In this document: positions 10,184 through 55,078 of the stretch, in pieces
Position numbering within the stretch: position 1 is the first letter of the stretch
Layout: the number at the start of each line of letters is the position of its first letter
Assembly (NCBI GenBank): GCA_903827945.1
Contig: CAIKKN010000009.1
Span: forward strand, 52,046-116,045
DNA length: 64,000 nt
DNA from: an uncultured Actinomycetes bacterium
GTDB lineage: Bacteria; Actinomycetota; Actinomycetes; Nanopelagicales; Nanopelagicaceae
Direction: 5' to 3'
The notes under the pieces: model-generated
Seen by the model: only the letters and a program-made list of their open reading frames with translations
Databases searched by the model: none
Told to the model about the DNA's origin: nothing
Made by a program: the position numbers and the translations under genes

Positions 10184-10352
10184 CGCTCCCTGCAACCGTG
10201 AGTGGTAACCCCCAAATTATTCAGTGCACGCTCGGGCTTCTCGCCATACTCGCAAATTCAACTGTGTTGTAAGCCACGTCGTCTATTTTCGAGCGGATAC
10301 TTAATGAAGGACCGCCAATGACGACGGCCCGTTGAGGTTAGGGGAAGTTCAT

Positions 10353-10898
10353 ATGGCTGAAAATAAAATTGCCGATCCTGTCCCACTAGGACTGGCCGCT
10401 TTTGGCGTAACACTCATGATGCTTAGCTCTGCAAATGCTGGACTTTGGGGCGGTGCCGGTGGGGGCGCAGTAGTTGGAACAGCCCTCTTTTATGGCGGCA
10501 TAACTCTCGCACTTGTTGGTCTTCTCGAGTTTATGCGAGGCAATGCATTCACAGCAACAGTCTTTAGCTCCTTCGGAGCATTCTGGATGTCAGTTTGGTA
10601 CTGGCTAACACATGCTGCAGTTCAAGCACCAGGCTCTCTTGGCGTCTTCCTTATGGTTTTCTCGCTTGCATCATTTGTAATGTGGATCTGTGCAATCAAA
10701 CTCGGCATGCAACTCAATGTCTTGTTCTTGCTTCTAACAATTACCCTCGTTCTATTGGCTTATGGCAATTGGGGCGCTGGACATGCGAGCATGGTTAAAG
10801 ATGGCGGATGGACCGGGATGGTTACAGCCGCTCTTGCACTTTACCTGACTGCAAAATCGTTGATTAACGAAATTTGGGGACGGAAAGTGCTTCCTTAA
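10353..10898 (+). CDS. satP: GPR1/FUN34/YaaH-family acetate/succinate channel
   Basis: 181 aa and six predicted TM segments. N-terminal DPVPLGLAAFG corresponds to the family NPAPLGL signature. SD GGGGAAG lies 6 nt before ATG 10353. Confidence 0.85.
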   Translation: MAENKIADPVPLGLAAFGVTLMMLSSANAGLWGGAGGGAVVGTALFYGGITLALVGLLEFMRGNAFTATVFSSFGAFWMSVWYWLTHAAVQAPGSLGVFLMVFSLASFVMWICAIKLGMQLNVLFLLLTITLVLLAYGNWGAGHASMVKDGGWTGMVTAALALYLTAKSLINEIWGRKVLP

Positions 10899-10910: not shown

Positions 10911-10947
10911 AATAAAAGCCCCGGTCGACATTGGCCGGGGTTTTTTA
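10911..10947. terminator. Bidirectional intrinsic terminator between convergent satP and the GDPD-IMPase gene
   Basis: A-run 10911-10918, GC stem CCCCGG (10919-10924) / CCGGGG (10935-10940), then T6 at 10941-10946. The minus-strand stop codon lies inside the T tract. Confidence 0.6.
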
Positions 10948-12453
10948 TTTAAGAGCTGCAACCCAAATATCAAAGAGAGCTGTTGAAGCAACGGGGTGGA
11001 CAATTAACATCCCGCCATTTGTTGGGAAAAGATCTTCTTCGCCTTGCTCGTTTAGGACTATGCATCCTGCTTCTTTAGCAATCAAAGCAGCAGCCAAGTG
11101 ATCAATCGGGCTAAAGCGATGGACAACAGATCCAATTCCGTAATTGGCTGCAGCTGCTGTCAAAGTTAGGGTCCCCGCTCCCATAACTCGCATAGTGCAA
11201 TAACTTTCATGAAGTCCTTCTAGAAAGTTTTGAAAACCAGGCCAAGGTTCTGATCCCGCTAGTTCTGTGAGTACAACTCTGCCTGCAAGTGGCGTTTTCG
11301 TCGAAGCATCGATTGGCTTTGGTACAACTAGTGGCAAGCCATTCACGGTCGCACCACGACCTTTAGCCGCTTGAAAAAGTTTGTTTCTCCACGGATCGAT
11401 AGTGACCCCAACGAGTGGGTCTGTTCCTACTGCAAGTGAGAGTGAGAGCGAACTCCAGGGCGTTCTGTTTGCAAAATTAGTTGTGCCATCGACCGGGTCG
11501 ATATACCAAGTGGGTGTAAGTGGATCGAACTCTCCACCAAACTCTTCGCCAACAATGTTGTGTGTCGGGAAGGTAGCTTTGATCATTTCACGTGCGTGAC
11601 GTTCAATAAAGAGGTCTACTTCAGTGACGAGGTCAGCGGGATTGGCCTTGGTTTGAATATCTCCCGGAACCATCCAATTACAAACTTGAATTGCCCAGGT
11701 CCCAATACTTTGTGCCAATTCGATGGCGCGGTCGATGTCCAGAGGATCTGCGTCAGAATCATCCGCAATGACTTTCTGAAGGAGTTCCAAATTGTTAGTC
11801 GTAATAGAATCAATTCCTATGGATTTAGCCCATCGCATCGTTGGGGCGTCATCGATAGTCCAGGCAGATGCCTTCAAACCAAGAGCGTGCACTTCAGCGA
11901 TTCTGCTGGTTGTCCAAAATGAGTAGTGAGAATTTATGAATTCTGGCGAAAGTTCCTTGATCAATTCTTGGTCTACTGACTTATTTTCATTCCAGGGCGC
12001 CCAGATTCGCGAGGTTGATGAGTTCTGGCGTATCAAGAGCATTGCCTCAAGGTTGCCGCACCAAATCACTCTGGTTGGATCTAGCCCTGAACCCTCTACG
12101 AGTTTGAGAGCATTGATTGCATGAATTGGCGTATCCATGTCAATCATTATTGAACACTTGGTGCTCTGAAAAAGTTCTAGAACAGTTTCAAGAGTTGGAA
12201 TGCGAAATTGGGCGAAACCAATTTGTGAAATTTCATCAAGGTTAAGTGAGGAAGCTTCAGCCGGGAATCCCCATAAACGCTCCAAGCTGGAATCGTGGAG
12301 AACAATAATGTGGCCGTCTCTTGACTGTCGGATATCAATTTCGACTATTTCTGCGCCTAAATTGATGGCAGATTGAATCGAGGCGATTGTATTTTCCCTA
12401 AAACTTGATGAATCTCCACGGTGAGCTGTTGCAAACAAGGGTGGATGTTTCAT
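10945..12453 (-). CDS. fusion protein: N-terminal glycerophosphodiester phosphodiesterase (GDPD) and C-terminal inositol-monophosphatase-family (IMPase/SuhB-like) domain
   Basis: GDPD motifs HRGDSSSFRENT and VEIDIRQSRDGHIIVLHD. IMPase motifs VGEEFGG, WYIDPVDGTTNF and a variant C-terminal IDHLAAALIAKEAG. TAATG overlap with the upstream ATPase gene. Confidence 0.85.
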   Translation of the reverse strand: MKHPPLFATAHRGDSSSFRENTIASIQSAINLGAEIVEIDIRQSRDGHIIVLHDSSLERLWGFPAEASSLNLDEISQIGFAQFRIPTLETVLELFQSTKCSIMIDMDTPIHAINALKLVEGSGLDPTRVIWCGNLEAMLLIRQNSSTSRIWAPWNENKSVDQELIKELSPEFINSHYSFWTTSRIAEVHALGLKASAWTIDDAPTMRWAKSIGIDSITTNNLELLQKVIADDSDADPLDIDRAIELAQSIGTWAIQVCNWMVPGDIQTKANPADLVTEVDLFIERHAREMIKATFPTHNIVGEEFGGEFDPLTPTWYIDPVDGTTNFANRTPWSSLSLSLAVGTDPLVGVTIDPWRNKLFQAAKGRGATVNGLPLVVPKPIDASTKTPLAGRVVLTELAGSEPWPGFQNFLEGLHESYCTMRVMGAGTLTLTAAAANYGIGSVVHRFSPIDHLAAALIAKEAGCIVLNEQGEEDLFPTNGGMLIVHPVASTALFDIWVAALK

Positions 12454-13466
12454 TAACCGACGAGTTTCCCATTCTGGTAACGGAGAGACTTCTTGATTTT
12501 CACAAATACATTTTCCCCAACCGCAGGGATGAATTCGTTTGTAAAGGCTTTGAAAATGCCATCTTCTCGCCGAATCACAACTTCGAAGAAGTGGCCTCTT
12601 GGAATTACGAGTTCAACAGTTCCCGGCAAGGCATCATCATTTTGCTGGCTACTCAAAATTAAATCCTCAGGGCGAATGCCAATTACGTCACTTCCTGAAA
12701 CTATGCGGCCCTCAACAAGGTTGCCTTCAAAACGATTGAGCGCACCGATAAATGTTGCCACGTATTCGGTGGCGGGATGACGATATAGATCTTGTGGATT
12801 CGAGAACTGTTCAATTTTCCCCGCATTCATTACGGCAACTCTGTCTGAAATGGAAAGCGCCTCTTCCTGATCGTGAGTGACAATAACTGTAGTGATGCCA
12901 AGTCTGCGTTGTAGCTCGCGTATATCCTCGCGAACTTTCTCGCGTAGTTTGGCGTCAAGGTTAGAAAGAGGTTCATCAAGCAGAAGTACATCTGGCTCTT
13001 GAACAAGGGCTCTAGCAAGGGCAACGCGTTGTTGCTCACCGCCGGAGATGCGACCCGGACGCGAATCTTGATGATGCAAGAGATTTACCAATCCCAACGC
13101 AGCTTCCACTTTTTCCGCAGTTTCTATCTTGCCAAGACCTTTGATTTTGAGCGGATAAGCAACATTTCTAGAAACCGTCATATGAGGCCATAAGGCATAA
13201 TTTTGAAAGACCATTGCACTCGGTCGCTTCTCTGGGCCAAGGTTTGTTACATCTTTACCAGCAACTTTTACAGTGCCAGCATCTGGAATGAGAAATCCCG
13301 CAATCATTCGAAGAGTCGTCGTCTTTCCACATCCCGATGGTCCGAGCAACGAAATCATTTCACCTTTTGCCATCGACAAATCAAGATTTTCGATAATGAC
13401 GCGACCGCCAAGAATCTTCTTTAAGCCACGTAGTTCTAGTCCCATGTTTGCCTCAACATTCTTCAT
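12453..13466 (-). CDS. ABC transporter ATP-binding protein (PotA/FbpC-like, with a C-terminal TOBE-like domain)
   Basis: Walker A GPSGCGKTT, signature ISGGEQQRVALARAL, Walker B LLLDEP. ATGA overlap with the upstream permease. Confidence 0.9.
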   Translation of the reverse strand: MKNVEANMGLELRGLKKILGGRVIIENLDLSMAKGEMISLLGPSGCGKTTTLRMIAGFLIPDAGTVKVAGKDVTNLGPEKRPSAMVFQNYALWPHMTVSRNVAYPLKIKGLGKIETAEKVEAALGLVNLLHHQDSRPGRISGGEQQRVALARALVQEPDVLLLDEPLSNLDAKLREKVREDIRELQRRLGITTVIVTHDQEEALSISDRVAVMNAGKIEQFSNPQDLYRHPATEYVATFIGALNRFEGNLVEGRIVSGSDVIGIRPEDLILSSQQNDDALPGTVELVIPRGHFFEVVIRREDGIFKAFTNEFIPAVGENVFVKIKKSLRYQNGKLVG

Positions 13467-14278
13467 TTTATTTGGAATCCTTCCGCAAGCTGGCCGCCCA
13501 TGATGTGTTTACGCGCAAGACCAAGAAGTAAGACTGATGGAATTGCTAACAAAATTGAAAAGACGGCTGCAACCTGAATTGGATAGTTTTGAACCAGCGA
13601 ATACATTTCAGTTGGCATTGTGTAGATCGTTGGCGCGCCGACCAAGTAAGAACCCTGAGCCTCATCAAATGAAGCAAGGAAAGACATAACAATCGCTACA
13701 AGAATTCCTGGCATTGCCATGCGCAGCGTAATTGTTCTAAATACGGTGAATTTACTAGCTCCGGCATCTCGCGCGGCTTCTTCCAGATATCTCGGAACCG
13801 ATGCAAATGCAGCAGCAGGAATCCAAGTCATATAAATAATTGTTCCAAGTAGCTGAATAATGACGACTCCTAGGAAAGTTCCCATCAAATTCAATGTGTA
13901 ATAAAGAGTCGCGATAGCTGCGAAGAGTCCGATTTTTGGAAACGAGTTGGCCGAAAATAAGGTGATCATGAATGTCTTGCGTCCCCAATAGTTCATTCGT
14001 CCAGCTGCGTACGCTGCAGGCAGACAGATAACCATCGACAGAACAACCACAATCGGACTAATAATGAGCGAGTTCCTGATTGCAGTTTTAAGAGCTGAAT
14101 CGAGAAATACCTTGGACCACCAATTCAAAGTTAACCCTGAAGGATAGAGGTGGGGGTATTTCCAATCTGTTACAAAGGCGTGGACGCCCAACCACAAGAT
14201 TGGTCCAAGAATAAAAAGAGCTAACAAAAAAACGGAGAGGTTTAAAGCGACCTTTGAAGGGTTGAAATATCGGCGCAT
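13463..14278 (-). CDS. ABC transporter permease
   Basis: 271 aa and multi-TM. EAA-like loop (YLEEAARDAGASKFTVFRTITL). Translationally coupled on both sides. Confidence 0.9.
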   Translation of the reverse strand: MRRYFNPSKVALNLSVFLLALFILGPILWLGVHAFVTDWKYPHLYPSGLTLNWWSKVFLDSALKTAIRNSLIISPIVVVLSMVICLPAAYAAGRMNYWGRKTFMITLFSANSFPKIGLFAAIATLYYTLNLMGTFLGVVIIQLLGTIIYMTWIPAAAFASVPRYLEEAARDAGASKFTVFRTITLRMAMPGILVAIVMSFLASFDEAQGSYLVGAPTIYTMPTEMYSLVQNYPIQVAAVFSILLAIPSVLLLGLARKHIMGGQLAEGFQIK

Positions 14279-15219
14279 CAGATTCGCCCATTCTCTTTGG
14301 CGCTCTTGACGTTAGACCAGATGTAGAGGACGGCAATGCCAGAAGCGGCCAAGAAGACAATAAATGCCATTACGAGGGATTGTTGCGGTCTGTTGTAGGA
14401 GCCGAAGAAGTTTGAGATTTCTACCCCAAGCATTGTCGGCTGATTTGGTCCTAGGAAAAGCGGAATGGTGAATGATCCCATTATTCCAATAGCCGTAAAT
14501 GATCCAGCAATGATGATTGGTGTTTGGGCAAGAGGAACAACCACTGTGGATATGACCTTTAAAGTCGAAGCTCCACAGTCTTTTGCGGACTCGATGAGGG
14601 CATCAGGAACCGCCTGTACGCCCGAGCTGATCATCAAAATTGAAAACGGTAGCGAGGTCCAGACTGACCCAATAACGATAGCCGTTGAGGTGGAGGTAAG
14701 AGTGGGAAAGTTGATCCCAATGTTGGCGAAGAAACTGCGCATAAAGCCGTCACCACCATAAAAGGTGTGAATTGCCCATGCAGAGATTACTACTGGGACA
14801 AAGAGCGGAACGATTGAAAGTGTGGCAAGAACTGAAGCGGTGCGGCCACCGACTAACCGTTGGTGCAGAGCAATGGCTAGTGCAATAACAATGACCAGCA
14901 CAGTGGAGATTGCGGTAACAGCCAGCGTAAGTACCAAGTCGCCAACGAATCGTGAATCATGAAAGACATCCGAGTACGCAGCAAAAGTTCCCCACCAATG
15001 TGTCTTCGGGTGAATTTGTTGACCAATAATCGCTATGACGCGATTTGGACCTTTTGTAAATCCCAAACTAAAAGTAAATCCGATAAGAATTGGAATTCCG
15101 ACAAAACCAAGAACAAGTAAAAGTGGAGGAAGTGAAAGCGCAAAGCCGAACAAGGAGGACCCGCTGCCATTGTTGGCTAGCGAACCCTCCTTGCCAGTTC
15201 TACGGAGAAGTGATCTCAC
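14278..15219 (-). CDS. ABC transporter permease
   Basis: 313 aa and multi-TM. EAA-like loop (LIESAKDCGASTLKVISTVVVP). Confidence 0.9.
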   Translation of the reverse strand: MRSLLRRTGKEGSLANNGSGSSLFGFALSLPPLLLVLGFVGIPILIGFTFSLGFTKGPNRVIAIIGQQIHPKTHWWGTFAAYSDVFHDSRFVGDLVLTLAVTAISTVLVIVIALAIALHQRLVGGRTASVLATLSIVPLFVPVVISAWAIHTFYGGDGFMRSFFANIGINFPTLTSTSTAIVIGSVWTSLPFSILMISSGVQAVPDALIESAKDCGASTLKVISTVVVPLAQTPIIIAGSFTAIGIMGSFTIPLFLGPNQPTMLGVEISNFFGSYNRPQQSLVMAFIVFLAASGIAVLYIWSNVKSAKENGRI

Positions 15220-15239
15220 TTAGATGCTGAAAACAGCCC

Positions 15240-16388
15240 TTACTTACCTGGAACGGTTGAAGCCCACTTGCTCTTCAAGTCGTTGGCATTTGCACTGAGG
15301 TATCCAGCGCGTAAGTTTTGAATATCTACACCAGTAAATGCAGCGGTTGCAGTTGGATCAAGCTTCGCCAAAGGAATGACTGGGAAGCCATTTAGTGTTC
15401 CGCTGACAATCAAGTTCTGTGCAGCTGGTGAAAGAACCCAGTTAGCGAGAACGCGAGCACCCTTATTACGGTTTGCAGAAGTTGCTGGAATTCCAAGGTA
15501 TGAAGCTCCACCTGTCAAAGTTGGGTTCAAAATTTGTGCAACCTTGATATTTGAAGGCATTGTTCCAGCTTTGACTGCTGATGCAAATTGATCTGACCAA
15601 ACGGTTCCCATATCAACAAGGCCGGTTGCAAGATCCTTCAAAGTTTCGGCGTTGTTTGCTGGGTAAGTACCATTCTGTCCGTATGTGTACTTGTTAAGTT
15701 GGCGAAGAGTTTCAAGTCCTGTCGCCCACTTTGTTTCAAGCTCTGGAGCAGCGCTTGAAACTAAAGTCTTGCGATCTGCATCTGAAAGATACTTATCAAC
15801 AACAGTCTGTACGAATGCATATCCACTTCCGCCACCGCTTGGAGCGTTGTATGTGAACTTGCCTGGATTCTTCTTAATCCAAGTCAATAATTCATCAAGA
15901 GTCTTTGGAGGAGTTGGAACGTTCTTTGTGTTGTATGCAAGAAGAACTGATGAGCCGCGGTATGGAATTCCACCCTTGCCAGCTTTTAGAACAGTCTTGT
16001 TGACATCAATTAGATTTGGAACAATTCCAACTGTTGGCTTAAAGAGGAGACCAGCAGCGCCAAGTGTTGTTACAAAACCACCGTCAATGAGATCTACGCC
16101 TGCATCTTTACCAAGTGTTGCAGCAGCAGTCAATTTTGCTGTCTCTTGCGCGTCGTGGTCGCCGTGAAGGTCAAAAGTTACGTTTACGTCGTAACCAGGA
16201 TTTGCAGCTTTAAAAGCGGGAACGAGGGTCTTAACCCAAAGATCTTGAATATTTGTGTCAGCAGAAATGTAAACCTGAACTGTCTGAACTTTTGCCATTG
16301 CAGCATGAGAAGCAGAAGTGCTTACTCCAAGTGCAAGAGCGATTGCTGCAGAAACTGCAACAGCCTTCTTGGTTGTCATCTTAAACAA
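15240..16388 (-). CDS. ABC transporter extracellular solute-binding protein (family 1, iron/aminophosphonate/polyamine-like)
   Basis: 382 aa. N-terminal signal peptide (KKAVAVSAAIALALGVSTSASHAAMA). TTG start at 16388, 5 nt after SD GGAGGA. First gene of a five-gene minus-strand operon. Confidence 0.85.
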   Translation of the reverse strand: MFKMTTKKAVAVSAAIALALGVSTSASHAAMAKVQTVQVYISADTNIQDLWVKTLVPAFKAANPGYDVNVTFDLHGDHDAQETAKLTAAATLGKDAGVDLIDGGFVTTLGAAGLLFKPTVGIVPNLIDVNKTVLKAGKGGIPYRGSSVLLAYNTKNVPTPPKTLDELLTWIKKNPGKFTYNAPSGGGSGYAFVQTVVDKYLSDADRKTLVSSAAPELETKWATGLETLRQLNKYTYGQNGTYPANNAETLKDLATGLVDMGTVWSDQFASAVKAGTMPSNIKVAQILNPTLTGGASYLGIPATSANRNKGARVLANWVLSPAAQNLIVSGTLNGFPVIPLAKLDPTATAAFTGVDIQNLRAGYLSANANDLKSKWASTVPGK

Positions 16389-16458: not shown

Positions 16459-16491
16459 GTTAAGTGAACAATCAGTAGGTCGTAGGTGAAC
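16459..16491 (-). promoter_or_regulatory. Candidate PHO box: three 11-nt-phased units on the minus strand (GTTCACCTACG / ACCTACTGATT / GTTCACTTAAC) upstream of the ABC/GDPD operon
   Basis: The two GTTCAC cores are exactly 22 nt apart. The site is about 70-100 nt upstream of the SBP start. It overlaps a 16-nt near-palindrome, GTTCAGTTAAGTGAAC (16454-16469). Confidence 0.4.
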
Positions 16492-19882: not shown

Positions 19883-19904
19883 GTTCACCTAATCATCACC
19901 TAAA
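19883..19904 (+). promoter_or_regulatory. Candidate PHO box: two adjacent 11-nt direct repeats GTTCACCTAAT / CATCACCTAAA in the putA/FAD-oxidase divergent region
   Basis: TCACCTAA is repeated with exact 11-nt periodicity. The first unit carries the full GTTCACC core. The site lies 32 nt (ATG 19936) or 53 nt (ATG 19957) upstream of the oxidase gene. Confidence 0.45.
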
Positions 19905-42507: not shown

Positions 42508-43632
42508 GTGTCACCAGAGTCAGAAGCTTTCAAACCTGGTCTAGAAGGCGTTATTGCCTTTGAATCAACAATTGCAGAACCGGATAAAGAGGGAAGCGCT
42601 CTTCGTTACCGCGGTGTTGATATTGAAGACCTCGTAGGTCGGGTGACATTTGGAAATGTATGGGGACTTCTAGTTGATGATGAATTTAATCCCGGCCTTC
42701 CACCTGCCGAGAGATTCCCACTTCCTGTGCACTCAGGTGATATTCGCGTAGATGTGCAATCTGCGATTGCAATGCTTGCACCTGCCTGGGGATTCAAACC
42801 ACTTCTTGATATTGATGATGCAGAAGCTCGCGACAATCTTGCACGTGCATCTGTAATGGTTCTTTCATATGTCGCACAAGCTGCTCGCGGAATCGAGCCA
42901 GCAGTTCCAGAAGCTGAAATTGATAAAGCACATACGGTCGTAGAGCGCATGATGCGTCGTTGGCGCGGAGAGCCAGATCCAAAGCACGTTCGTGCAATTG
43001 ACGCGTACTTTGTTTCTGCTGCAGAACACGGAATGAACGCTTCGACCTTTACCGCTCGTGTAATTGCCTCAACAGGAGCAGATGTTGCTGCTTCACTTTC
43101 TGGAGCAATCGGAGCGATGTCTGGTCCACTTCACGGAGGAGCGCCTTCTCGTGTTCTTCATATGATTGAAGAAGTTGAAAAATCAGGCGATGCACGAAAG
43201 TACGTTAAGGATTTGATGGATCGTAAAGAGCGTTTGATGGGATTTGGTCACCGCGTGTATCGTGCTGAAGATCCTCGTGCTCGTACATTGCGCCGTACTG
43301 CAAAAGAATTAAATGCTCCTCGTTATCAAGTTGCCGAAGCTCTTGAACAAGCTGCACTTGCCGAACTTCGTGAGCGTCAACCAGATCGCGTTCTCGAAAC
43401 AAACGTTGAATTTTGGGCAGCCATCATTCTTGATTTTGCTGAAGTCCCATCGCATATGTTTACCTCAATGTTTACAGCTGCGCGTACTGCTGGCTGGTCG
43501 GCTCATATTCTTGAACAGAAGCGCACAGGTCGTCTTGTTCGCCCATCTGCTCGATATATCGGACCTGGACCACGTAAGGTTCAAGACGTTAAAGGTTGGG
43601 ATGACTCAGTAGAGTCGCTTCACTCTTTCTAA
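42508..43632 (+). CDS. citA: citrate synthase (short, CitA-like form)
   Basis: 374 aa. Catalytic blocks SGPLHGGAP and GFGHRVYRAEDPR. GTG start. Confidence 0.88.
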   Translation: MSPESEAFKPGLEGVIAFESTIAEPDKEGSALRYRGVDIEDLVGRVTFGNVWGLLVDDEFNPGLPPAERFPLPVHSGDIRVDVQSAIAMLAPAWGFKPLLDIDDAEARDNLARASVMVLSYVAQAARGIEPAVPEAEIDKAHTVVERMMRRWRGEPDPKHVRAIDAYFVSAAEHGMNASTFTARVIASTGADVAASLSGAIGAMSGPLHGGAPSRVLHMIEEVEKSGDARKYVKDLMDRKERLMGFGHRVYRAEDPRARTLRRTAKELNAPRYQVAEALEQAALAELRERQPDRVLETNVEFWAAIILDFAEVPSHMFTSMFTAARTAGWSAHILEQKRTGRLVRPSARYIGPGPRKVQDVKGWDDSVESLHSF

Positions 43633-43639
43633 AAAGGAT

Positions 43640-44464
43640 TTATTCAAGCCAGAATTTAAGCGCACTGGAGACGTATTTTGACCACGATTTTTCGTTGTGG
43701 CCAGTGCGAGGGTAAACCTTTGAAATGAAATCATGATTTGCCCTCCAACCATTTTCTAGAGCTCTTTGATCTGCGTAATTCTGTTGAGTTTCATATGTTG
43801 CATCGAGCCCTTTTGTTCCGCGGCTCATCCACAATTTGTGAGTTCCTGGTTTAGGCAGAGCATCTATAAGTACGTCCACAAAGGCGTTATCTGAAATAAC
43901 CCAATGTGGGCTTAGCGAAAGTGCGCTTCCGTAAATATCGGGCCGCCGGCCAACGCCGTACAAAGTCATCAACCCACCCATGCTAGATCCGAGCATCGCA
44001 GTGTTTCTAGCTTCTGGTTTCAATCCAAAGAGATTCGCAATCGACGGGAGAATCTCCTCATTTATTTTGCGTAGATAAGCGTCTGATCTAATTTCTTCTA
44101 ACTCAAAAAGAGGTGGTTGAACATTGACTTTGAGGCCATTCAAGAATGGCTGTTGTGGAGTCAAATCTTTGTAGCGGCCATGGGGATCAGATTTTGTTCG
44201 TGAGTGAAAGACACTGATGATGAGCGGAGGATTGATGCCCAATTCATCTGAAAGGCGAACTGCGTGTTGGGCAAGCTGCCAAGTCTTACGCCTCGTCGCT
44301 GTATTTTTATCAAAGATATTTTGACCATCGTGTGTCACTAGAACATGTGTTGGATTTTCCGGGCCCCAGAAATCAACGAATCTTCCATCGAAGTTCGCTC
44401 TCGTCACATTTCCTGGAACACCGCGGACCTGAAATTGCTTAACTCTCTGGAAATCGGCCGCCAT
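43640..44464 (-). CDS. alpha/beta-fold esterase (esterase D/enterochelin-esterase-like family)
   Basis: Nucleophile elbow GSSMGG. The start is uncertain. The ORF-track start 44566 would overlap the photolyase start, so I chose ATG 44464 (MAADFQ). Confidence 0.65.
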   Translation of the reverse strand: MAADFQRVKQFQVRGVPGNVTRANFDGRFVDFWGPENPTHVLVTHDGQNIFDKNTATRRKTWQLAQHAVRLSDELGINPPLIISVFHSRTKSDPHGRYKDLTPQQPFLNGLKVNVQPPLFELEEIRSDAYLRKINEEILPSIANLFGLKPEARNTAMLGSSMGGLMTLYGVGRRPDIYGSALSLSPHWVISDNAFVDVLIDALPKPGTHKLWMSRGTKGLDATYETQQNYADQRALENGWRANHDFISKVYPRTGHNEKSWSKYVSSALKFWLE

Positions 44465-44480
44465 GATGAGAGGATAAAGC

Positions 44481-45881
44481 ATGATGGAAATGGGCACCAC
44501 AAATACGGTCATGTGGTTCAGGCGCGACCTAAGAATTGGAGACAACCCGGCACTTCTTGCAGCCATCGAAGAAGCTCGAGAAAATGGCGGAGCAGTCCTT
44601 CCGCTTTTTATTTTAGACCCAGCCTTAATTGGTGGGGCCGGATCAAAACGTTTGGCTTACCTCTCTGATTCCTTACGTGCTTTAGATGAATCTCTTTTAG
44701 GGAATCTGCATGTAATGGTTGGCGATCAAGTCGATGTGCTGAAGGCGATAATTGAAAAACACTCCATCACTTCCATCCATATTTCAGCAGAATTTGAACG
44801 TTATGGTGTTGAACGCGATGCACGAGTCGAGAGCGCTGGCATAAAACTTATTCGGACCGGCAGTCCTTACGCTGTTGCTCCTGGGCGTGTAGTGAAACCC
44901 AGTGATGGGACTCCTTACAAGGTCTATACGCCTTTCTACAAGAATTGGCGGGAGCACGGTTGGAGAAACCCAGCGATAAGTCCTGCCACCTCGGAGATTC
45001 CACTTTTAAAGCCTGACGCCGGAGATCGCAATTTTCCACAATGGGAAGTGCCTTCGGGGTGTGAAATTTCTGAAGCCGGAGAGAAAGCGGCGCTAAAGAG
45101 ATTTAAATATTTCCAAGAAAATTTGTTAGATAACTACGATGAATCTCGAAACTTTGCTGGTGTTGATGGCACAAGCAGAATGAGCGCTCATCTCAAATGG
45201 GGTGAGATTCATCCGCGCACATTGTTACAACCCCTAGGGAGTAGCAAGGCGCACGATGTCTTCCGTAAAGAAATTGCATGGCGTGAATTTTATGCAGATG
45301 TGCTATTTAATAATCCGCGCACAGAATACGAGTATTACGCACCACAATTTGCAAATATGCATTACGACAAACCCGGAAAAAAATACAAAGCATGGTGTGA
45401 AGGAAAGACTGGTTTTCCTTTTGTTGATGCAGCAATGAGGCAATTGTTGACAGAGGGTTGGATGCATAATCGAACGCGAATGGTTGTCGCATCGTTCTTG
45501 GTGAAAGATCTCCATTTGGAATGGCAGTTAGGTGAGAAATTCTTCCGCGAGCATTTGGTTGATTTTGACTTAGCATCCAATATTCACGGGTGGCAGTGGA
45601 CGGCTGGATGTGGGACGGATGCCTCACCGTATTATCGAATCTTTAATCCAATCGAACAGGGAAAGAGATTTGATCCCGACGGTGATTACATTCGCAAATA
45701 CGTTCCAGAATTAGCTCACCTCAATGCTCCTGACATTCACGAGCCTTGGTCTGTCTTAGATGGATACCTCCACGATTATCCAGCGCAAATCGTGAACCAT
45801 GCGACTGAGCGACTTGAATCGTTGGCCAGGCTTCAAGAAATTAAAGTTCAAAAAGTTGAATACCCAGACCCGAACGCTTAG
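44481..45881 (+). CDS. phrB: deoxyribodipyrimidine photolyase (class I CPD photolyase/cryptochrome family)
   Basis: VMWFRRDLRIGDNPAL, WREFY, TGFPFVDAAMRQL, GWMHNRTRMVVASFL, and WQWTAG...PYYRIFNP. Confidence 0.9.
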   Translation: MMEMGTTNTVMWFRRDLRIGDNPALLAAIEEARENGGAVLPLFILDPALIGGAGSKRLAYLSDSLRALDESLLGNLHVMVGDQVDVLKAIIEKHSITSIHISAEFERYGVERDARVESAGIKLIRTGSPYAVAPGRVVKPSDGTPYKVYTPFYKNWREHGWRNPAISPATSEIPLLKPDAGDRNFPQWEVPSGCEISEAGEKAALKRFKYFQENLLDNYDESRNFAGVDGTSRMSAHLKWGEIHPRTLLQPLGSSKAHDVFRKEIAWREFYADVLFNNPRTEYEYYAPQFANMHYDKPGKKYKAWCEGKTGFPFVDAAMRQLLTEGWMHNRTRMVVASFLVKDLHLEWQLGEKFFREHLVDFDLASNIHGWQWTAGCGTDASPYYRIFNPIEQGKRFDPDGDYIRKYVPELAHLNAPDIHEPWSVLDGYLHDYPAQIVNHATERLESLARLQEIKVQKVEYPDPNA

Positions 45882-47244
45882 CTTCATACATCGCTTCATC
45901 TGCTCGTCGCATTAACTCGGGCTTGCTGTCATTGCTAATCGCTCCGATGCTCACTCCGAGGGTTACCGAATGGCTTCCAATTTCAGCTGGATAAGCCAGA
46001 GATGCACGAAGTGAGTGGGCTACTTCTATCCCATGTCGTGTATCTCCATAAATTATGGCCCCGAATTCATCGCCACCGAGTCTGGCGAGTAAATCTCCCT
46101 TAGGAATTTGCCTAGCGAAGCGAACTGAAATCTGGCGAAGCAATTCATCTCCAGCATCGTGTCCCAAAGTGTCATTTACTTTCTTGAACCCATCCAGATC
46201 TAAGAGCAAAAGGATCGCATTTCTCTCTTTAAGTGCGTCGAGTGCCGTAATAAAGCGACGTCGATTTGGCAAACCAGTGAGTTCATCTGTCCGTGCAAGT
46301 GCGCGCTCGTCCTTTATTTCACGTGCCTCTCGCAGTGCTATGGACATTCGGATGAAGGAGAGAGCAAGAGTTGCAAATGCTGGAATTAATATAAATACGG
46401 GTAATTCACTTGGCCGCACCACGGCGAGCATGAGAAGAGCGCTGCTTATAACAAGTGAAAGAAGCGTTGCAATTGGAATAACTTTCTTGTTGAGCTCACG
46501 TTCACCGCCATGATGCCACAGTGATTCAGATATGAGGATTAAGCCGATTACCCATCCATCATCTACAAGTGAGGCAAACGAGTAACCTGATGTTGCAGAT
46601 TTCCAAATAAAATATAAATCAGTGGCTGCGAATAGACCAACTCCCAAAAGCAATAGAAATGTTCTTAGAGATGGCTTCTGCATCGACATCGCTAGCAAAA
46701 CAATTACGAGCAGAATAATGTCACCAATAGGATAAAGAATTGCCAAGAAGACTGCCGGTGCCGATCCATCTAAATGCAACATCGCTGGTTTCAGCAAGAT
46801 GGAGGCAAGAACGCTTGTTGCTCCGAGGCTAATGATTGCCATGTCCAGCAATTCGGTCGCTCGAACTTTCTTCTTGGACGAAAGTGCTCGAAGAATTCCA
46901 AGTAAGGCAAATGGGTAAAAAAGTGAGTAGCAGATATCTGAAAAACCTCGCCAAACATGAAAATCATAAAATGACTCTGCGGTGGAAATTGTCGAACCTA
47001 CCGCCCAAATCGAAAGTGCGCCAGAAATTCCAATCGCCGCCCACCTGTCATTGAACAATGGCGAAAAGTATGAGGAGGCGGCAGCAAGAAAAACTGCTCC
47101 ATTAAAGAGATATAAATCAGGGAGGGGGGAGGGGGGTGAAAATACAAAGCGAATTCCCAGTTGAGCGAGCACTACAAGGACTGCGCCGATTCGTAGAAAA
47201 CGGTATGTTCCTGCCCGTGCTCTTGGGAAATCGCTGGGGCTCAT
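45841..47244 (-). CDS. membrane-anchored diguanylate cyclase (GGDEF domain)
   Basis: About 8-9 N-terminal TM helices, then a GGDEF domain with an intact active site, RLGGDEFGAII. No RxxD I-site is seen 5 aa upstream. The 3' end overlaps phrB by 41 nt. Confidence 0.88.
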   Translation of the reverse strand: MSPSDFPRARAGTYRFLRIGAVLVVLAQLGIRFVFSPPSPLPDLYLFNGAVFLAAASSYFSPLFNDRWAAIGISGALSIWAVGSTISTAESFYDFHVWRGFSDICYSLFYPFALLGILRALSSKKKVRATELLDMAIISLGATSVLASILLKPAMLHLDGSAPAVFLAILYPIGDIILLVIVLLAMSMQKPSLRTFLLLLGVGLFAATDLYFIWKSATSGYSFASLVDDGWVIGLILISESLWHHGGERELNKKVIPIATLLSLVISSALLMLAVVRPSELPVFILIPAFATLALSFIRMSIALREAREIKDERALARTDELTGLPNRRRFITALDALKERNAILLLLDLDGFKKVNDTLGHDAGDELLRQISVRFARQIPKGDLLARLGGDEFGAIIYGDTRHGIEVAHSLRASLAYPAEIGSHSVTLGVSIGAISNDSKPELMRRADEAMYEAKRSGLGIQLFEL

Positions 47245-47288
47245 AACTAAAAGTATTGCTAAAGAAGAGTCAGAGGGAGATTTCTAGG

Positions 47289-47741
47289 ATGAGCGAATTG
47301 AATATTGAAGGCGCAAAGAGTGCTCACATCGGCCGCCGCGCCGTCTTATGTGGAGCGGTCGCGATTGCTCTTGGGATTTCTACAGATCTAGCGAGTGCAT
47401 CCGTCCCGGCTGTTGGAATCAAACAAATTGGAAAGAAAATTCAATTAGATCTTGCAAAGAATAAAGCGCTTGCGAAAGTTGGCGGCGCGGTGACAATTGA
47501 TCTTTCTAATGGATCCTCAGTTGCAATAGTGCGCACCAGCGCTGGCGTTAAAGGATTTACCGCTCTGAATTTGTCTTGTACTCACCAAGGAGTAACTGTT
47601 GAGCAACAAGGCTCTACGTGGGTCTGCCCTGCGCATGGTTCGGCATTTAGTTCTACTGGAAAAGTAGTTCGCGGCCCTGCCAACCAGGCACTATTTGCGT
47701 ACCCAGTCGCAGCGACCGCGAAAACCGTAACTATCGGTTAA
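47289..47741 (+). CDS. small Rieske [2Fe-2S] protein with a Tat-like signal
   Basis: Rieske ligands CTHQG...CPAHGS. N-terminal HIGRRAVLCGAVAIALG. Start at ATG 47289 after GAGGGAG. Confidence 0.8.
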   Translation: MSELNIEGAKSAHIGRRAVLCGAVAIALGISTDLASASVPAVGIKQIGKKIQLDLAKNKALAKVGGAVTIDLSNGSSVAIVRTSAGVKGFTALNLSCTHQGVTVEQQGSTWVCPAHGSAFSSTGKVVRGPANQALFAYPVAATAKTVTIG

Positions 47742-47761
47742 TTTGTTTTACTTTGTAAAGT

Positions 47762-48544
47762 TTAAATTCCAGCTTTACATGCAAGGGTGCGAAGGTTTAA
47801 AGCTTGTGTTGCACCTTCTGCAATTTGAGTAGAAACAGTCGCTTGTGAAGCGTTACTTGCATCGAGCTGAGTTTGCATTGTTGCAATCTGCGAAACTGCG
47901 CGAGCACGATCTGAATCTATTTTTGGACTAATCTTTGAATAATTGTCGAGCTGGCGTCCGTATGTGGTCAAGCTTGTTGAATAACCAGCTGCGGCTTTGG
48001 TCCAGTTTGCCTTATCTGTTGCAGAGACGGTTGTAACCGCTGCTTGCTTAAGCGCGTTGTCGCGCTTTACTGTGATTTCGGCGATTTTTGCAGTCAACTC
48101 TGTGATTGCAGCCGTGATACCAGTTGCTTTATGCATGGTCTTTGTTGTTGGGTCAGTCCACAGCGGATAAAGGTTTGTTTCGAGTGCTGCTTTCTTTTGA
48201 TCAAGAAGGACAACTACGTTCTTCCACGATGCAACGCTTGCTGTCATCTTTGTGATTGCAGCTGCTTGTTGTGATGTGAAGCTATCGCTATCTTTCTTGG
48301 TTGCAAGATAAGTCTTTGCTGCGGTTACGCAATCTGTAGTGACCCAAACCAACTTCTTGCTGGTTGTCGCGGGGTTAACTTGGCAAACGTAGGAGTTCTT
48401 GCCTGACTTTGCTTTCAGGCCTGACTTTGCACACGCAGCGCCTTGCTTAACGGCTGCAGCGTGAACAGGAGCGGCAACGCCGGCAATGAGCACGACGGCC
48501 ATGAGACCGATTGGGGCAATTTTCTTGGTTACCTTATTAAACAC
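47762..48544 (-). CDS. secreted hypothetical protein, Ala/Thr/Lys-rich with four Cys
   Basis: Signal peptide KKIAPIGLMAVVLIAGVAAPVHA. No recognisable catalytic motif. Start moved to GTG 48544, 5 nt after GGAGG. Confidence 0.6.
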   Translation of the reverse strand: MFNKVTKKIAPIGLMAVVLIAGVAAPVHAAAVKQGAACAKSGLKAKSGKNSYVCQVNPATTSKKLVWVTTDCVTAAKTYLATKKDSDSFTSQQAAAITKMTASVASWKNVVVLLDQKKAALETNLYPLWTDPTTKTMHKATGITAAITELTAKIAEITVKRDNALKQAAVTTVSATDKANWTKAAAGYSTSLTTYGRQLDNYSKISPKIDSDRARAVSQIATMQTQLDASNASQATVSTQIAEGATQALNLRTLACKAGI

Positions 48545-49956: not shown

Positions 49957-49967
49957 TTTAGAAATTG

Positions 49968-55066: not shown

Positions 55067-55078
55067 TAAACTTCGCAA

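What the first reader, a model, noticed from the sequence alone, without database searches (positions are those of the whole stretch)
10945..16388. ABC importer operon ending in a GDPD-IMPase fusion enzyme
Five minus-strand genes are translationally coupled (TAATG and ATGA overlaps): SBP, two permeases, ATPase, and a 502-aa protein. That protein joins a complete glycerophosphodiester phosphodiesterase domain (HRG...ENT...E.D...HD) to a complete inositol-monophosphatase-family domain (EE, DPxDGT).

A phosphodiesterase fused to a sugar-phosphate or alcohol-phosphate monoesterase would turn an imported phosphodiester directly into two alcohols plus Pi. Candidate substrates are glycerophosphoinositol or glycerophosphoglycerol.

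The transporter is of the PotABCD/Fbp/AEP type, not the canonical UgpBAEC type that usually accompanies GlpQ/UgpQ. I do not recall this fusion being characterised.
Basis: partly seen in the sequence, partly recalled or inferred. Interest (0 to 1): 0.6.

Follow-up and report, generated by a model that had tools for sequence, protein, structure and literature searches.

The report
Phosphodiester import operon with fused hydrolase
A freshwater acI actinobacterium carries a conserved five-gene operon that probably imports an organic phosphate diester, most likely an inositol-containing lipid head group, and splits it fully with an unstudied two-in-one enzyme to yield phosphate and usable alcohols.

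Summary
Five minus-strand genes (10945-16388) encode a signal-peptide SBP, two permeases, an ATPase and a cytoplasmic 502-aa GDPD-IMPase fusion. Junctions are TGATG, ATGA and TAATG, and a terminator hairpin closes the operon.

The fusion is not an artefact:
- More than 450 homologues from independent assemblies carry both domains.
- Catalytic residues of both halves are invariant in 121 sequences.
- AlphaFold gives pLDDT 91 and pTM 0.89.
- The five-gene module recurs with variable flanks, including in a distant high-GC family.

It is a rare accessory module: 31 of 201 Nanopelagicaceae genomes, and about 20-25 clusters at 50% identity among 1.84 billion proteins.

Substrate clues:
- In 12 genomes of three genera the operon lies 8-11 kb from iolB, directly after iolD-iolB-iolE genes.
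- Fusion presence tracks IolB (odds ratio 7.3).
- One distant copy sits beside DhaK/DhaM.
- In the window's subclade the promoter carries phased GTTCACCT repeats, otherwise found only at pstS.

Best reading: uptake and complete hydrolysis of an inositol-type phosphodiester such as glycerophosphoinositol, for phosphorus and carbon. The substrate and the order of cleavage are unproven.

The closest precedent is AccF/AccG of the agrocinopine operon. This is a new variant of a known kind, of moderate interest.

The parts
16459..16491 (-). Three 11-nt units, GTTCACCTACG / ACCTACTGATT / GTTCACTTAAC, ending 70 nt upstream of the SBP start codon. Candidate Pho-type (PhoP/RegX3-like) operator.
   Evidence: Sequence read. 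A GTTCA[CT]/GTTTAC pair at exactly 22-nt spacing is kept upstream of the SBP gene in L001, L002, L004, L009/10 and L011. The phased pattern GTTYACYT at 11- or 22-nt spacing occurs at only two places in the 1.5-Mb genome, the pstS promoter and here, and in none of 20 shuffles. The pattern was chosen after seeing both sites. No binding was shown.
15240..16388 (-). Substrate-binding protein (382 aa) with an N-terminal signal peptide and no lipobox Cys. It is a divergent cluster-D, YnjB-like SBP.
   Evidence: Pfam SBP_bac_8 and SBP_bac_1. NCBIfam PRK11622 subfamily, 109 bits, below the 203 cut-off. AlphaFold pLDDT 82.5. Foldseek matches Fe, AEP, polyamine, dinucleotide and sulfoquinovosyl-glycerol binders at 14-21% identity and TM about 0.6. 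Homologues are 61-99% identical.
14278..15219 (-). ABC permease 1 (313 aa, PotB/PotH-like).
   Evidence: Pfam BPD_transp_1. NCBIfam best hits are PotB and PotH, below their cut-offs. It is 78-80% identical in syntenic loci.
13463..14278 (-). ABC permease 2 (271 aa, PotC-like). Its start overlaps the stop of permease 1 (TGATG).
12453..13466 (-). ABC ATPase with a C-terminal TOBE_2 domain (337 aa). ATGA overlap with permease 2.
   Evidence: Pfam ABC_tran and TOBE_2. NCBIfam best hits are PhnT2 (340 bits against 458) and PotA. Junction checked.
10945..12453 (-). Cytoplasmic 502-aa bifunctional enzyme: GDPD-family phosphodiesterase fused to an IMPase-family phosphomonoesterase. TAATG overlap with the ATPase gene.
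   Evidence: pLDDT 90.9, pTM 0.89. In one search no PDB entry covers both halves (TM normalised to the query is at most 0.45).
11785..12423 (-). GDPD domain (residues 11-223). H11 and R12, E38 and D40, H53 and D105 form the predicted acid/base and metal site.
   Evidence: Pfam 102 bits. Aligned with 2pz0 and 7e0v. Foldseek to 2pz0 gives TM 0.88 and rmsd 1.8. Residues invariant. Residue roles taken from B. subtilis GlpQ (PMC7086022). The subfamily signature LERLWG plus Asp instead of Glu is shared with unfused actinomycete GDPDs.
11011..11727 (-). IMPase-family domain (residues 243-481). E303 and E304, D319, D322, T324 and D451 form the metal and catalytic set.
   Evidence: Pfam 144.5 bits. Aligned to human IMPA1 and SuhB. 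Foldseek to SuhB/IMPase gives TM 0.76-0.86. Residues invariant. It lacks the Glu before the (W)D motif and has an ELAxxxPWPG insertion relative to the paralogues.
10911..10949 (-). Hairpin (CCCCGG...CCGGGG) followed by UUUUAUU, overlapping the fusion's stop codon. Likely a bidirectional intrinsic terminator shared with the convergent gene at 10332-10898.
   Evidence: Sequence. RNA fold of -14.7 kcal/mol, z = -2.66. The pattern scanner missed it because of its loop-length rule.

Best explanation
The operon is an accessory nutrient-scavenging module.

Proposed steps:
1. The secreted SBP captures a small organic phosphodiester outside the cell. The most likely substrate is an inositol phosphodiester such as glycerophosphoinositol, the deacylated head group of phosphatidylinositol.
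2. The two permeases and the ATPase import it.
3. In the cytoplasm the N-terminal GDPD domain cuts the diester, using two-His acid/base catalysis and a divalent metal.
4. The fused IMPase-family domain removes the phosphate from the resulting phosphomonoester. This is probably inositol-1-phosphate, if the GDPD half leaves the phosphate on the polyol as AccF does. The alternative is glycerol-3-phosphate.

The net products are inositol, glycerol and Pi. Inositol would feed the iol pathway and glycerol the Dha/Glp routes.

In the window's own subclade the operon appears to be wired to the phosphate-starvation regulon. In another subclade it is physically attached to the inositol-catabolism cluster.

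What is shown:
- gene content and order;
- intact catalytic residues;
- folds;
- conservation of the module;
- iol linkage;
- promoter repeats shared with pstS.

What is inferred:
- the ligand;
- which bond is cut first;
- Pho regulation.
For: Module integrity:
- The five genes are coupled and end at a terminator.
- The same order holds in L001, L002, L004, L005, L008-L011 and L036-L040, and in a distant high-GC family (L034: SBP 47%, fusion 41% identity).

Enzyme competence:
- Catalytic residues are invariant in 121 sequences.
- The fold matches GDPD 2pz0 (TM 0.88) and SuhB/IMPase (TM 0.76-0.86).
- The model is confident.
- There is no signal peptide.

The fusion is not the housekeeping IMPase or HisN:
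- Separate SuhB-like and HisN paralogues exist.
- Ino1 is present.
- The fusion occurs in only 31 of 201 genomes of the family.

Inositol link:
- In L037 the order is IolD, IolB (208 bits against a 205 cut-off), two IolE-like genes, then the operon. L008 and L040 have an IolG-like gene and two IolE-like genes upstream.
- IolB lies 7.8-11.5 kb from the fusion in 12 genomes of three genera.
- Co-occurrence counts are 21 / 10 / 38 / 132, giving an odds ratio of 7.3 and p = 1.5e-6.
- The own genome has IolA, IolB and IolD above their cut-offs, with no transporter beside them.

Glycerol link: in L033 the order is MFS, fusion, DhaK ... DhaM.

Phosphorus link:
- Phased GTTCACCT units occur only here and at pstS and are kept in orthologous promoters.
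- The neighbourhood holds PPK, Ppx and a phosphonate-type cluster.

Precedents:
- AccF cleaves agrocinopine A to sucrose and arabinose-2-phosphate, and AccG is the paired phosphatase (PMC4526662).
- An unfused module with a homologous transporter sits on pTiAF3.44.
- Unfused adjacent GDPD and IMPase genes occur in L035.
- Flavobacterium PhoA1 combines PhoA with a GDPD-like domain in a GroPI/PtdIns utilisation locus (bioRxiv 10.64898/2026.09.03.749221).

Biochemical logic (inference): glycerol-3-phosphate is a central metabolite that needs no phosphatase to deliver phosphorus. An obligatory fused phosphatase therefore fits better with a monoester that is otherwise a dead end, such as inositol phosphate.
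Against: - No ligand or activity data exist.
- The SBP fold search does not discriminate: Fe, AEP, polyamine, dinucleotide and sugar binders match equally, at 14-21% identity.
- The IMPase half scores far below the inositol-1-monophosphatase equivalog (83.5 bits against 332). It also lacks the Glu before the (W)D motif that the SuhB-like and HisN paralogues keep, so inositol-phosphate specificity is not assured.
- Ten of 31 fusion-positive genomes lack IolB, including three of the five in the window's genus. In the window's genome the iol cluster is on another contig.
- The co-occurrence test is not corrected for phylogeny.
- The GTTCAC repeats are absent from the iol-linked subclade and from L034 and L036.
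- A looser version of the motif is not enriched genome-wide (3 sites against 3-6 in shuffles).
- The strict pattern was defined after seeing both sites.
- Other lineages put the module under LacI- or ROK-type regulators, so a phosphorus role is not universal.
Confidence: 0.55

Rival explanations
1. This is a generic, Ugp-like glycerophosphodiester scavenger. The SBP takes any glycerophosphodiester (GPC, GPE, GPG, GroPI). The GDPD half makes glycerol-3-phosphate plus an alcohol in the canonical way. The IMPase-family half acts as a glycerol-3-phosphate phosphatase, freeing Pi quickly under phosphate starvation.
For: - All canonical GDPD catalytic residues are present and the fold is closest to a classical GDPD.
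- The window subclade has a Pho-type promoter and a phosphorus-metabolism neighbourhood.
- DhaK/DhaM next to one copy fits glycerol as the end product.
- The IMPase half diverges from true inositol monophosphatases.
- Ten fusion-positive genomes lack IolB.
Against: - Glycerol-3-phosphate can be used directly for phosphorus and carbon, so an obligatory fused phosphatase is hard to justify (inference from E. coli Ugp/UgpQ physiology).
- The tight physical linkage to iolD, iolB and iolE in three genera is not explained.
- The GDPD half belongs to a distinct subfamily (Asp for the third-ligand Glu, Lys lost). The genome's stand-alone GDPD keeps the canonical motif, which suggests a different specificity.
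Confidence: 0.25
2. This is a sugar-phosphodiester (agrocinopine-like or glycan or teichoic-acid fragment) catabolic module. The substrate would be a sugar-phosphate-sugar or sugar-phosphate-polyol diester. As in the acc operon, the GDPD half releases a sugar-phosphate that the IMPase half dephosphorylates.
For: - AccF/AccG shows that this enzyme pair acts on a non-glycerol sugar diester.
- A module with a homologous transporter sits beside traR on an Agrobacterium Ti plasmid, with an aldose 1-epimerase downstream.
- LacI- and ROK-type regulators flank other copies.
- The SBP also resembles a dinucleotide (phosphodiester) binder and a sulfoquinovosyl-glycerol binder.
Against: - No sugar-catabolic genes accompany the acI operons. 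The recurrent neighbours are iol genes.
- Agrocinopines are products of crown galls and are not expected in lake water (established knowledge).
Confidence: 0.13
3. The transporter carries an unrelated ligand (polyamine, iron, thiamine, aminoethylphosphonate). The fusion enzyme would then be a passenger with a separate role, for example inositol supply for mycothiol or phosphatidylinositol, or histidinol-phosphate hydrolysis.
For: - Automatic annotations call the SBP a 'spermidine/putrescine' binder.
- The best NCBIfam hits of the transporter parts are Pot and Phn families.
- HisN is the top NCBIfam hit of the IMPase half (87 bits).
Against: - All those hits are far below the curated cut-offs.
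- The five genes travel together across families with changing flanks, and the last four are coupled by overlapping stop and start codons.
- The genome has separate HisN, SuhB-like and Ino1 genes.
- The module is accessory, present in 31 of 201 genomes. A biosynthetic housekeeping role does not fit that.
Confidence: 0.04
4. The fusion is an assembly or frameshift artefact that joins two genes.
For: None was found.
Against: - 454 homologues were found. All 120 listed carry both Pfam domains in one ORF and come from ENA, JGI, NCBI and Logan assemblies, including complete 1.4-2.1 Mb contigs.
- 31 genomes of the family have the full-length gene.
- The model places both domains confidently relative to each other (pTM 0.89).
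Confidence: 0.01

Closest known systems
acc (agrocinopine catabolism) operon of Agrobacterium pTiC58: AccA-E importer, AccF phosphodiesterase, AccG phosphatase (PMC4526662)
   Same: An ABC importer for a phosphodiester is encoded together with a cytoplasmic phosphodiesterase and a phosphatase. AccF leaves the phosphate on the sugar (arabinose-2-phosphate) and the phosphatase then acts on it. That AccF belongs to the GDPD family and AccG to the IMPase family rests on my own knowledge and an earlier scan note; I did not check it here. An unfused module with a transporter homologous to the window's lies on pTiAF3.44.
   Different: - Here the two enzymes form one polypeptide.
- The transporter is a PotBC/YnjB-like type with one ATPase. 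That the acc importer is of the Opp-like AccA-E type is from my own knowledge and was not tested here.
- There is no AccR-type regulator.
- The host is a free-living planktonic actinobacterium.
- The likely substrate is an inositol or glycerol diester, not an opine.
E. coli ugpBAEC-ugpQ (and GlpQ): Pho-regulated glycerophosphodiester uptake with a cytoplasmic GDPD
   Same: An ABC importer operon ends in a cytoplasmic GDPD-family enzyme. Control by phosphate starvation is likely in the window's subclade. The purpose is scavenging of phospholipid head groups.
   Different: - The SBP and permeases are not Ugp-type (UgpA 40 bits against 335; UgpC 307 against 432).
- The GDPD belongs to a distinct subfamily, with Asp instead of the third-ligand Glu and no Lys.
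- A phosphomonoesterase is fused on, which Ugp lacks.
Flavobacterium johnsoniae pus2 PhoA1: PhoA phosphomonoesterase fused to a GDPD-like domain, in a locus needed for growth on phosphatidylinositol/GroPI as a phosphorus source (bioRxiv 10.64898/2026.09.03.749221)
   Same: A diesterase-like and a monoesterase domain sit in one protein, tied to the use of inositol phospholipid head groups as a phosphorus source.
   Different: - The monoesterase family differs (PhoA against IMPase).
- The GDPD-like subfamily differs (pf13653, unchar3).
- In Bacteroidota the partner is a TonB-dependent PusCD outer-membrane system, whereas here it is an inner-membrane ABC importer with a cytoplasmic enzyme.
Thermoanaerobacter GDPD (PDB 2pz0), B. 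subtilis GlpQ (5t9b) and E. coli SuhB / human IMPA1
   Same: These are the best structural matches of the two halves (TM 0.88 and 0.76-0.86). The catalytic His-Arg, Glu/Asp and His of GDPDs, and the GEE, DPxDGT and D motifs of IMPases, are conserved.
   Different: - They are single-domain enzymes, 20-28% identical.
- In the fusion the third Ca/Mg ligand is Asp105, not Glu.
- The IMPase half lacks the Glu preceding the WD motif and carries a family-specific insertion.

Membership tests
GDPD family (Pfam PF03009; PLC-like phosphodiesterase TIM barrel) | Profile score above the curated cut-off | tested here: met
   102.1 bits against 23.6, covering profile positions 1-243 of 244.
GDPD family (Pfam PF03009; PLC-like phosphodiesterase TIM barrel) | GDPD barrel fold | tested here: met
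   Foldseek to 2pz0 gives TM 0.88 (normalised to the target), rmsd 1.8 A over 238 columns. GlpQ 5t9b gives TM 0.80. The model has pLDDT 90.9.
GDPD family (Pfam PF03009; PLC-like phosphodiesterase TIM barrel) | Two catalytic His plus the phosphate-binding Arg (GlpQ His-43, Arg-44, His-85) | tested here: met
   H11, R12 and H53 align to these residues and are invariant in 121 sequences. Roles are taken from PMC7086022.
GDPD family (Pfam PF03009; PLC-like phosphodiesterase TIM barrel) | Three acidic metal ligands Glu, Asp, Glu (GlpQ Glu-70, Asp-72, Glu-152) | tested here: inconclusive
   E38 and D40 are present. The third position is an invariant Asp105 ('IDM[DE]' instead of 'IEIK'), and the following Lys is replaced by Asp or Glu. 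The nearest unfused actinomycete GDPDs share this. The change is conservative for metal binding, but its effect is unknown.
IMPase superfamily (Pfam PF00459) | Profile score above the cut-off, and the IMPase fold | tested here: met
   144.5 bits against 27. Foldseek to SuhB and IMPA gives TM 0.76-0.86.
IMPase superfamily (Pfam PF00459) | Metal and catalytic motifs: GEE (human E70), DPxDGT (D90, D93, T95) and (W)D (D220) | tested here: met
   E303/E304, D319-P-V-D322-G-T324 and D451 align with human IMPA1 and are invariant.
Bona fide inositol-1-monophosphatase (NCBIfam NF008027 SuhB equivalog) or HisN (TIGR02067) | Equivalog score cut-off | tested here: not met
   SuhB model: 83.5 bits against 332. 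HisN model: 87.4 bits against 275. The genome's separate HisN scores 275.0 and its SuhB-like protein 158.
Bona fide inositol-1-monophosphatase (NCBIfam NF008027 SuhB equivalog) or HisN (TIGR02067) | Glu shortly before the WD motif (human E213 region), present in this genome's SuhB-like and HisN paralogues | tested here: not met
   The aligned position is His, Arg or Gly in the fusion family, and WD reads ID. This rests on a sequence alignment only. The model's coordinates could not be inspected.
UgpBAEC-UgpQ glycerophosphodiester system | Ugp-type SBP, permeases and ATPase | tested here: not met
   UgpA scores 40.5 bits against 335 and UgpC 307 against 432. The SBP has no UgpB hit. The best hits are PotB, PotC, PhnT2 and PRK11622.
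UgpBAEC-UgpQ glycerophosphodiester system | Membership of the phosphate-starvation regulon | tested here: inconclusive
   Phased GTTCACCT units are shared only with the pstS promoter and are kept in six orthologous promoters. They are absent from other subclades. There are no expression or binding data.
acc-type phosphodiester catabolic operon (AccA-G) | ABC importer encoded with a GDPD-family diesterase and an IMPase-family phosphatase | tested here: met
   Searches show these functions here, with the two enzymes fused. The acc description comes from PMC4526662.
acc-type phosphodiester catabolic operon (AccA-G) | AccA-type oligopeptide/opine-class SBP with a two-ATPase Opp-like transporter, and the AccR repressor | tested here: not met
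   The SBP is of SBP_bac_8/1 type, there is a single ATPase, and the operon has no regulator gene. That the acc importer is Opp-like is from my own knowledge.
PotABCD / PhnSTUV-like ABC importers (one TOBE-bearing ATPase, two permeases, cluster-D SBP) | Architecture, and best family hits | tested here: met
   ABC_tran+TOBE_2, two BPD_transp_1 proteins and SBP_bac_8. The nearest structures are cluster-D SBPs.
PotABCD / PhnSTUV-like ABC importers (one TOBE-bearing ATPase, two permeases, cluster-D SBP) | Equivalog-level identity with a transporter of known ligand (PotD, PhnS, FbpA, ThiB) | tested here: not met
   Every component is below every curated cut-off. The SBP is only 14-21% identical to solved binders and has no similarity to the neighbouring phosphonate-cluster SBP.

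The most novel reading that the evidence does not exclude
The GDPD half works in the PI-PLC / AccF manner on a soluble head group. It would cleave glycerophosphoinositol on the glycerol side, making it a bacterial glycerophosphoinositol inositolphosphodiesterase, and hand inositol-1-phosphate to the fused IMPase-family domain.

Together with a YnjB-like SBP of a new ligand class, this would be a dedicated cytoplasmic pathway for inositol phosphodiesters. It would link phospholipid-derived dissolved organic phosphorus both to the Pho regulon and to inositol catabolism in acI, a widespread group of freshwater bacterioplankton.
Probability: 0.3. Interest if true: 0.65.

Novelty: new variant of a known kind. 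Interest (0 to 1): 0.5.

Why it matters
Nanopelagicales (acI) are described in the literature as the most abundant freshwater bacterioplankton, and lakes are often phosphorus-limited. How these streamlined cells use dissolved organic phosphorus is poorly known.

This operon is a concrete, testable candidate for uptake and complete breakdown of phospholipid head groups. It combines an uncharacterised bifunctional enzyme with an SBP family that has no known ligand. If confirmed, three things would follow:
- A substrate would be assigned to the YnjB-like SBP family.
- A GDPD subfamily with an altered metal site would be defined.
- The patchy, strain-level distribution of the operon (31 of 201 genomes) would be explained as niche partitioning for phosphorus and carbon.

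The same module, unfused, sits next to traR on an Agrobacterium Ti plasmid, so knowing the chemistry could also bear on opine biology.

Tried and rejected
- **SBP ligand from solved structures.** The sequence search gave only weak MalE hits. Foldseek gave an undifferentiated list of cluster-D binders at TM about 0.6. No ligand can be inferred.
- **Loose promoter motif.** GTTYAY-N16-GTTYAY occurs 3 times in the genome against 3-6 in shuffles, so it is not enriched. Only the stricter 8-nt phased unit is specific, and it was defined after the fact.
- **Inositol auxotrophy.** The idea that the operon supplies inositol for mycothiol or phosphatidylinositol is rejected, because inositol-1-phosphate synthase is present.
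- **Housekeeping role for the IMPase half.** The idea that it is the cell's IMPase or HisN is rejected. Separate paralogues exist and the fusion is accessory.
- **Paralogy with the neighbouring phosphonate-cluster transporter.** Only the ATPases are similar (45%). The SBPs are unrelated.
- **Known riboswitch or leader RNA.** No Rfam match at E <= 0.1.
- **Sigma-70 consensus promoter.** None was found. This says little for actinobacteria.
- **Literature.** Four searches found no paper on the fusion. A recent Nanopelagicales genomics paper does not mention phosphodiesters or inositol.
- **Geometry of the two active sites.** Only pTM 0.89 can be reported.

Full report
**Observation**

- SBP, 15240-16388
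- permease 1, 14278-15219
- permease 2, 13463-14278
- ATPase, 12453-13466
- a 502-aa protein, 10945-12453

The junctions are a 20-nt gap after the SBP gene, then TGATG, ATGA and TAATG overlaps. A GC-rich hairpin with a U-run overlaps the last stop codon (-14.7 kcal/mol, z = -2.7). It faces the convergent GPR1/FUN34/YaaH-family gene, so the operon ends with the 502-aa gene.

Pfam finds GDPD at residues 11-223 and Inositol_P at residues 243-481, both far above their cut-offs. It also finds SBP_bac_8/1, two BPD_transp_1 proteins and ABC_tran+TOBE_2. The SBP has an N-terminal signal peptide. The fusion has none, because its HRG motif starts at residue 11.

**Is the fusion real and catalytically competent?**

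All 120 listed carry both Pfam domains in one ORF of about 500 aa, at 49-97% identity. They come from ENA, JGI, NCBI and Logan assemblies, including 1.4- and 2.1-Mb contigs. This rules out an assembly or frameshift artefact.

In an alignment of 121 family members the following residues are invariant:
- GDPD His-Arg (H11, R12), the ENT motif, E38-x-D40 and H53-D54.
- IMPase E303/E304, D319-P-x-D322-G-T324 and D451.

According to the GlpQ literature, the corresponding GDPD residues bind the phosphate, act as general acid and base, and hold the Ca2+ that also binds the vicinal hydroxyls of the substrate (PMC7086022).

Two family-specific departures exist:
- The third metal ligand, Glu in 'IEIK' of the solved GDPDs, is an invariant Asp105, and the Lys is replaced by Asp or Glu. 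The nearest unfused GDPDs of large actinomycete genomes share this, together with an 'LERLWG' signature. The genome's own stand-alone GDPD keeps 'IETK'.
- The IMPase half lacks the Glu that this genome's SuhB-like and HisN paralogues have just before the (W)D motif, and it carries an ELAxxxPWPG insertion.

AlphaFold2 gives pLDDT 90.9 and pTM 0.89. Foldseek matches the N-half to GDPD 2pz0 (TM 0.88) and the C-half to SuhB/IMPase (TM 0.76-0.86). No PDB entry covers both halves.

**Organism and distribution**

Related loci come from Candidatus Nanopelagicaceae and 'uncultured actinobacterium' freshwater MAGs, plus one Microbacteriaceae MAG at 46% identity. The window's genome is 1.50 Mb and 95% complete.

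| Sample | Genomes or proteins searched | With the full-length fusion |
|---|---|---|
| Own family | 201 genomes | 31 (5 of 18 genera; 5 of 21 in the window's genus) |
| Class | 401 genomes | own genome, 2 of 22 in a sister genus, 2 in other families (43% identity) |
| 50%-identity representatives | 1.84 billion proteins | about 20-25 clusters, against about 38,700 hits to either domain alone |

In the class sample, two further large genomes have adjacent but separate GDPD and IMPase reading frames next to ABC permeases. Close stand-alone versions of each half also exist. The fusion is therefore a small, patchy, accessory family.

**The module**

The order SBP, permease, permease, ATPase, fusion is kept in L001, L002, L004, L005, L008, L009/10, L011 and L036-L040, with different flanking genes. 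It is also kept in a distant high-GC family (L034: SBP 47%, permeases 53% and 64%, ATPase 60%, fusion 41% identity).

NCBIfam places the transporter nearest to PotB/PotH, PotC and PhnT2/PotA, and places the SBP in the YnjB-like PRK11622 subfamily. All scores are below the curated cut-offs. Ugp models score poorly.

The SBP has no informative solved relative. Its model (pLDDT 82.5) resembles cluster-D binders of iron, AEP, polyamines, a dinucleotide and sulfoquinovosyl-glycerol about equally, at 14-21% identity. The ligand therefore cannot be read from structure. The SBP is unrelated to the SBP of the neighbouring phosphonate-type cluster.

**Substrate clues from context**

1. **Inositol**
   - In L037 the operon follows iolD (TPP enzyme), iolB (208 bits against a 205 cut-off) and two IolE-like genes. 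L008 and L040 have an IolG-like gene and two IolE-like genes.
   - Across 201 genomes of the family, 21 of 31 fusion-positive genomes have IolB, against 38 of 170 fusion-negative ones. That is an odds ratio of 7.3 (Fisher p = 1.5e-6), not corrected for phylogeny.
   - In 12 genomes of three genera, IolB lies 7.8-11.5 kb from the fusion on the same contig.
   - The window's genome has IolA, IolB and IolD above their cut-offs, plus IolE- and IolG-like genes, on another contig and with no transporter beside them.
2. **Glycerol**
   - One distant copy (L033) has the order MFS transporter, fusion, DhaK ... DhaM.
   - The own genome has a DhaK homologue.
3. **Phosphorus**
   - The promoter, on the operon strand, reads GTTCACCTACG ACCTACTGATT GTTCACTTAAC.
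   - A pair at the same 22-nt spacing is kept in six orthologous promoters.
   - The pstS promoter of this genome has GTTTACCTGTT GTTCACCTTGA.
   - The unit GTTYACYT in 11-nt phase occurs only at these two promoters and in none of 20 shuffles.
   - A looser pattern is not enriched, and the strict pattern was chosen after seeing both sites.
   - The window also holds PPK, a NUDIX/His-phosphatase, Ppx and a DAO-HAD-ABC-metallophosphoesterase cluster.
   - The repeats are absent from the iol-linked subclade, which instead has a tandem ATATTAGGACGTG, and from L034 and L036. L034 has a divergent LacI-type regulator.
   - The module therefore looks constant while its regulation differs between lineages.

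**What it is not**

- It does not make up for inositol auxotrophy, because Ino1 is present.
- It is not the housekeeping IMPase or HisN. Separate paralogues exist: HisN scores 275.0 against a cut-off of 275.15, and there is a SuhB-like protein.
- The genome's second GDPD is a 222-aa stand-alone gene in a housekeeping context.
- No Rfam element lies in the operon or its leader.

**Mechanism proposed**

The steps are import of a small phosphodiester, cleavage by the GDPD half, and dephosphorylation of the monoester by the IMPase half. The products are two alcohols and Pi.

Glycerol-3-phosphate can be assimilated without a phosphatase, as in E. coli Ugp/UgpQ (established knowledge). An obligatorily fused phosphatase therefore argues that the monoester product is not a central metabolite. 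Together with the iol linkage, this points to inositol phosphate. That in turn implies a GDPD half that leaves the phosphate on the polyol, as AccF does with arabinose-2-phosphate (PMC4526662).

My estimates:
- The general mechanism (diester import and two-step hydrolysis): about 0.85.
- An inositol-type diester such as GroPI as the main substrate: about 0.5.
- The specific order of cleavage (inositol phosphate as the intermediate): about 0.35.

The divergent pocket of the IMPase half and the 10 fusion-positive genomes without IolB keep the generic glycerophosphodiester reading alive.

**Comparison with known systems**

- **pTiAF3.44 of A. larrymoorei.** This plasmid carries ROK (divergent), then ATPase, permease, permease, SBP, GDPD, IMPase, Na/Pi cotransporter and aldose epimerase genes, followed by traR. 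Its transporter is homologous to the window's (ATPase 48%, permeases 26-30%, SBP 24%). Its GDPD keeps the canonical 'LELK'.
- **Ugp/UgpQ.** It shares the purpose but not the transporter family.
- **Flavobacterium PhoA1** (PhoA plus a GDPD-like domain). It shows an independent diesterase-monoesterase fusion in a GroPI/phosphatidylinositol utilisation locus.
- **Literature.** No paper on the GDPD-IMPase fusion was found.
- **Earlier AI notes.** Notes from this scan on other genomes reach similar readings. They are not independent evidence. One of them supplied the AccF/AccG lead, which I then checked in the literature and in the plasmid collection.

**Verdict**

- This is a new variant of a known kind. 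The principle of a diesterase plus monoesterase behind an ABC importer is known. The new elements are the fusion, the GDPD subfamily with the altered metal site, the YnjB-like transporter with no known ligand, the linkage to iol genes and a Pho-type promoter, and the setting in acI.
- Interest is moderate (0.5): a well-defined, experimentally tractable candidate, not a surprise of principle.

Noticed in passing
L037:3953-3978: In the iol-linked subclade the SBP promoter lacks the GTTCAC repeats. It carries a perfect tandem repeat, ATATTAGGACGTG twice, about 40 nt upstream of the start codon. L008 has repeated AGACGT motifs in the same place. This is a candidate operator for a different regulator.
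   Followed up: partly
L008:9472-10485; L037:9550-10392; L038:9511-10392; L040:9542-10387: A DUF6454 (PF20055) gene of about 280-337 aa lies directly downstream of the fusion gene in four loci of the iol-linked subclade. It is convergent in three of them and co-directional and overlapping in L008. It has no NCBIfam hit and its function is unknown.
   Followed up: partly
own genome C17:59019-66403 (outside the window): The genome's inositol cluster reads IolA, IolB, IolD, IolE-like, a TAL/FSA-family gene and a divergent IolG-like gene. No IolC or IolJ is visible and no transporter lies beside it. TAL/FSA genes also flank the operon in L008 and L037, so a transaldolase-like enzyme may replace the usual last steps of the iol pathway in acI.
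   Followed up: partly
own genome C13, about 115 nt upstream of pstS (pstS matches C13:13201-14163, minus strand): The pstS promoter carries two adjacent 11-nt units, GTTTACCTGTT and GTTCACCTTGA. The window's putA/phosphonate divergent promoter (19883-19904) has GTTCACCTAAT and CATCACCTAAA. Together with 16459-16491 these define a candidate Pho box for Nanopelagicaceae.
   Followed up: partly
genomes G420 (C12:14636-16132) and G434 (C18:8016-9524): Two genomes of one genus have a single in-frame TAA inside an otherwise full-length fusion gene (56-57% identity). This could be pseudogenisation or a shared sequencing or assembly feature.
   Followed up: no
L041 (A. larrymoorei pTiAF3.44, record 42676-61797): An unfused module sits immediately upstream of traR on a Ti plasmid: a divergent ROK regulator, then ATPase, permease, permease, SBP, GDPD, IMPase, Na/Pi cotransporter and aldose 1-epimerase. 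It looks like an opine-type (sugar phosphodiester?) catabolic operon that may control conjugation. Its transporter differs from that of the classical acc operon.
   Followed up: partly
window 15240-16388 (SBP N-terminus): The SBP has a signal peptide ending in SHA-A and no lipobox cysteine, whereas actinobacterial SBPs are usually lipoproteins. Two start codons are possible: TTG at 16388, 6 nt after GGAGG, and ATG at 16379. Most homologues are annotated from the later start (378-379 aa).
   Followed up: no
L034:14161-17847: In the distant high-GC carrier of the full module, a divergent LacI-family regulator sits upstream of the SBP gene, followed by an OmpR-type response regulator and a histidine kinase.
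   Followed up: no
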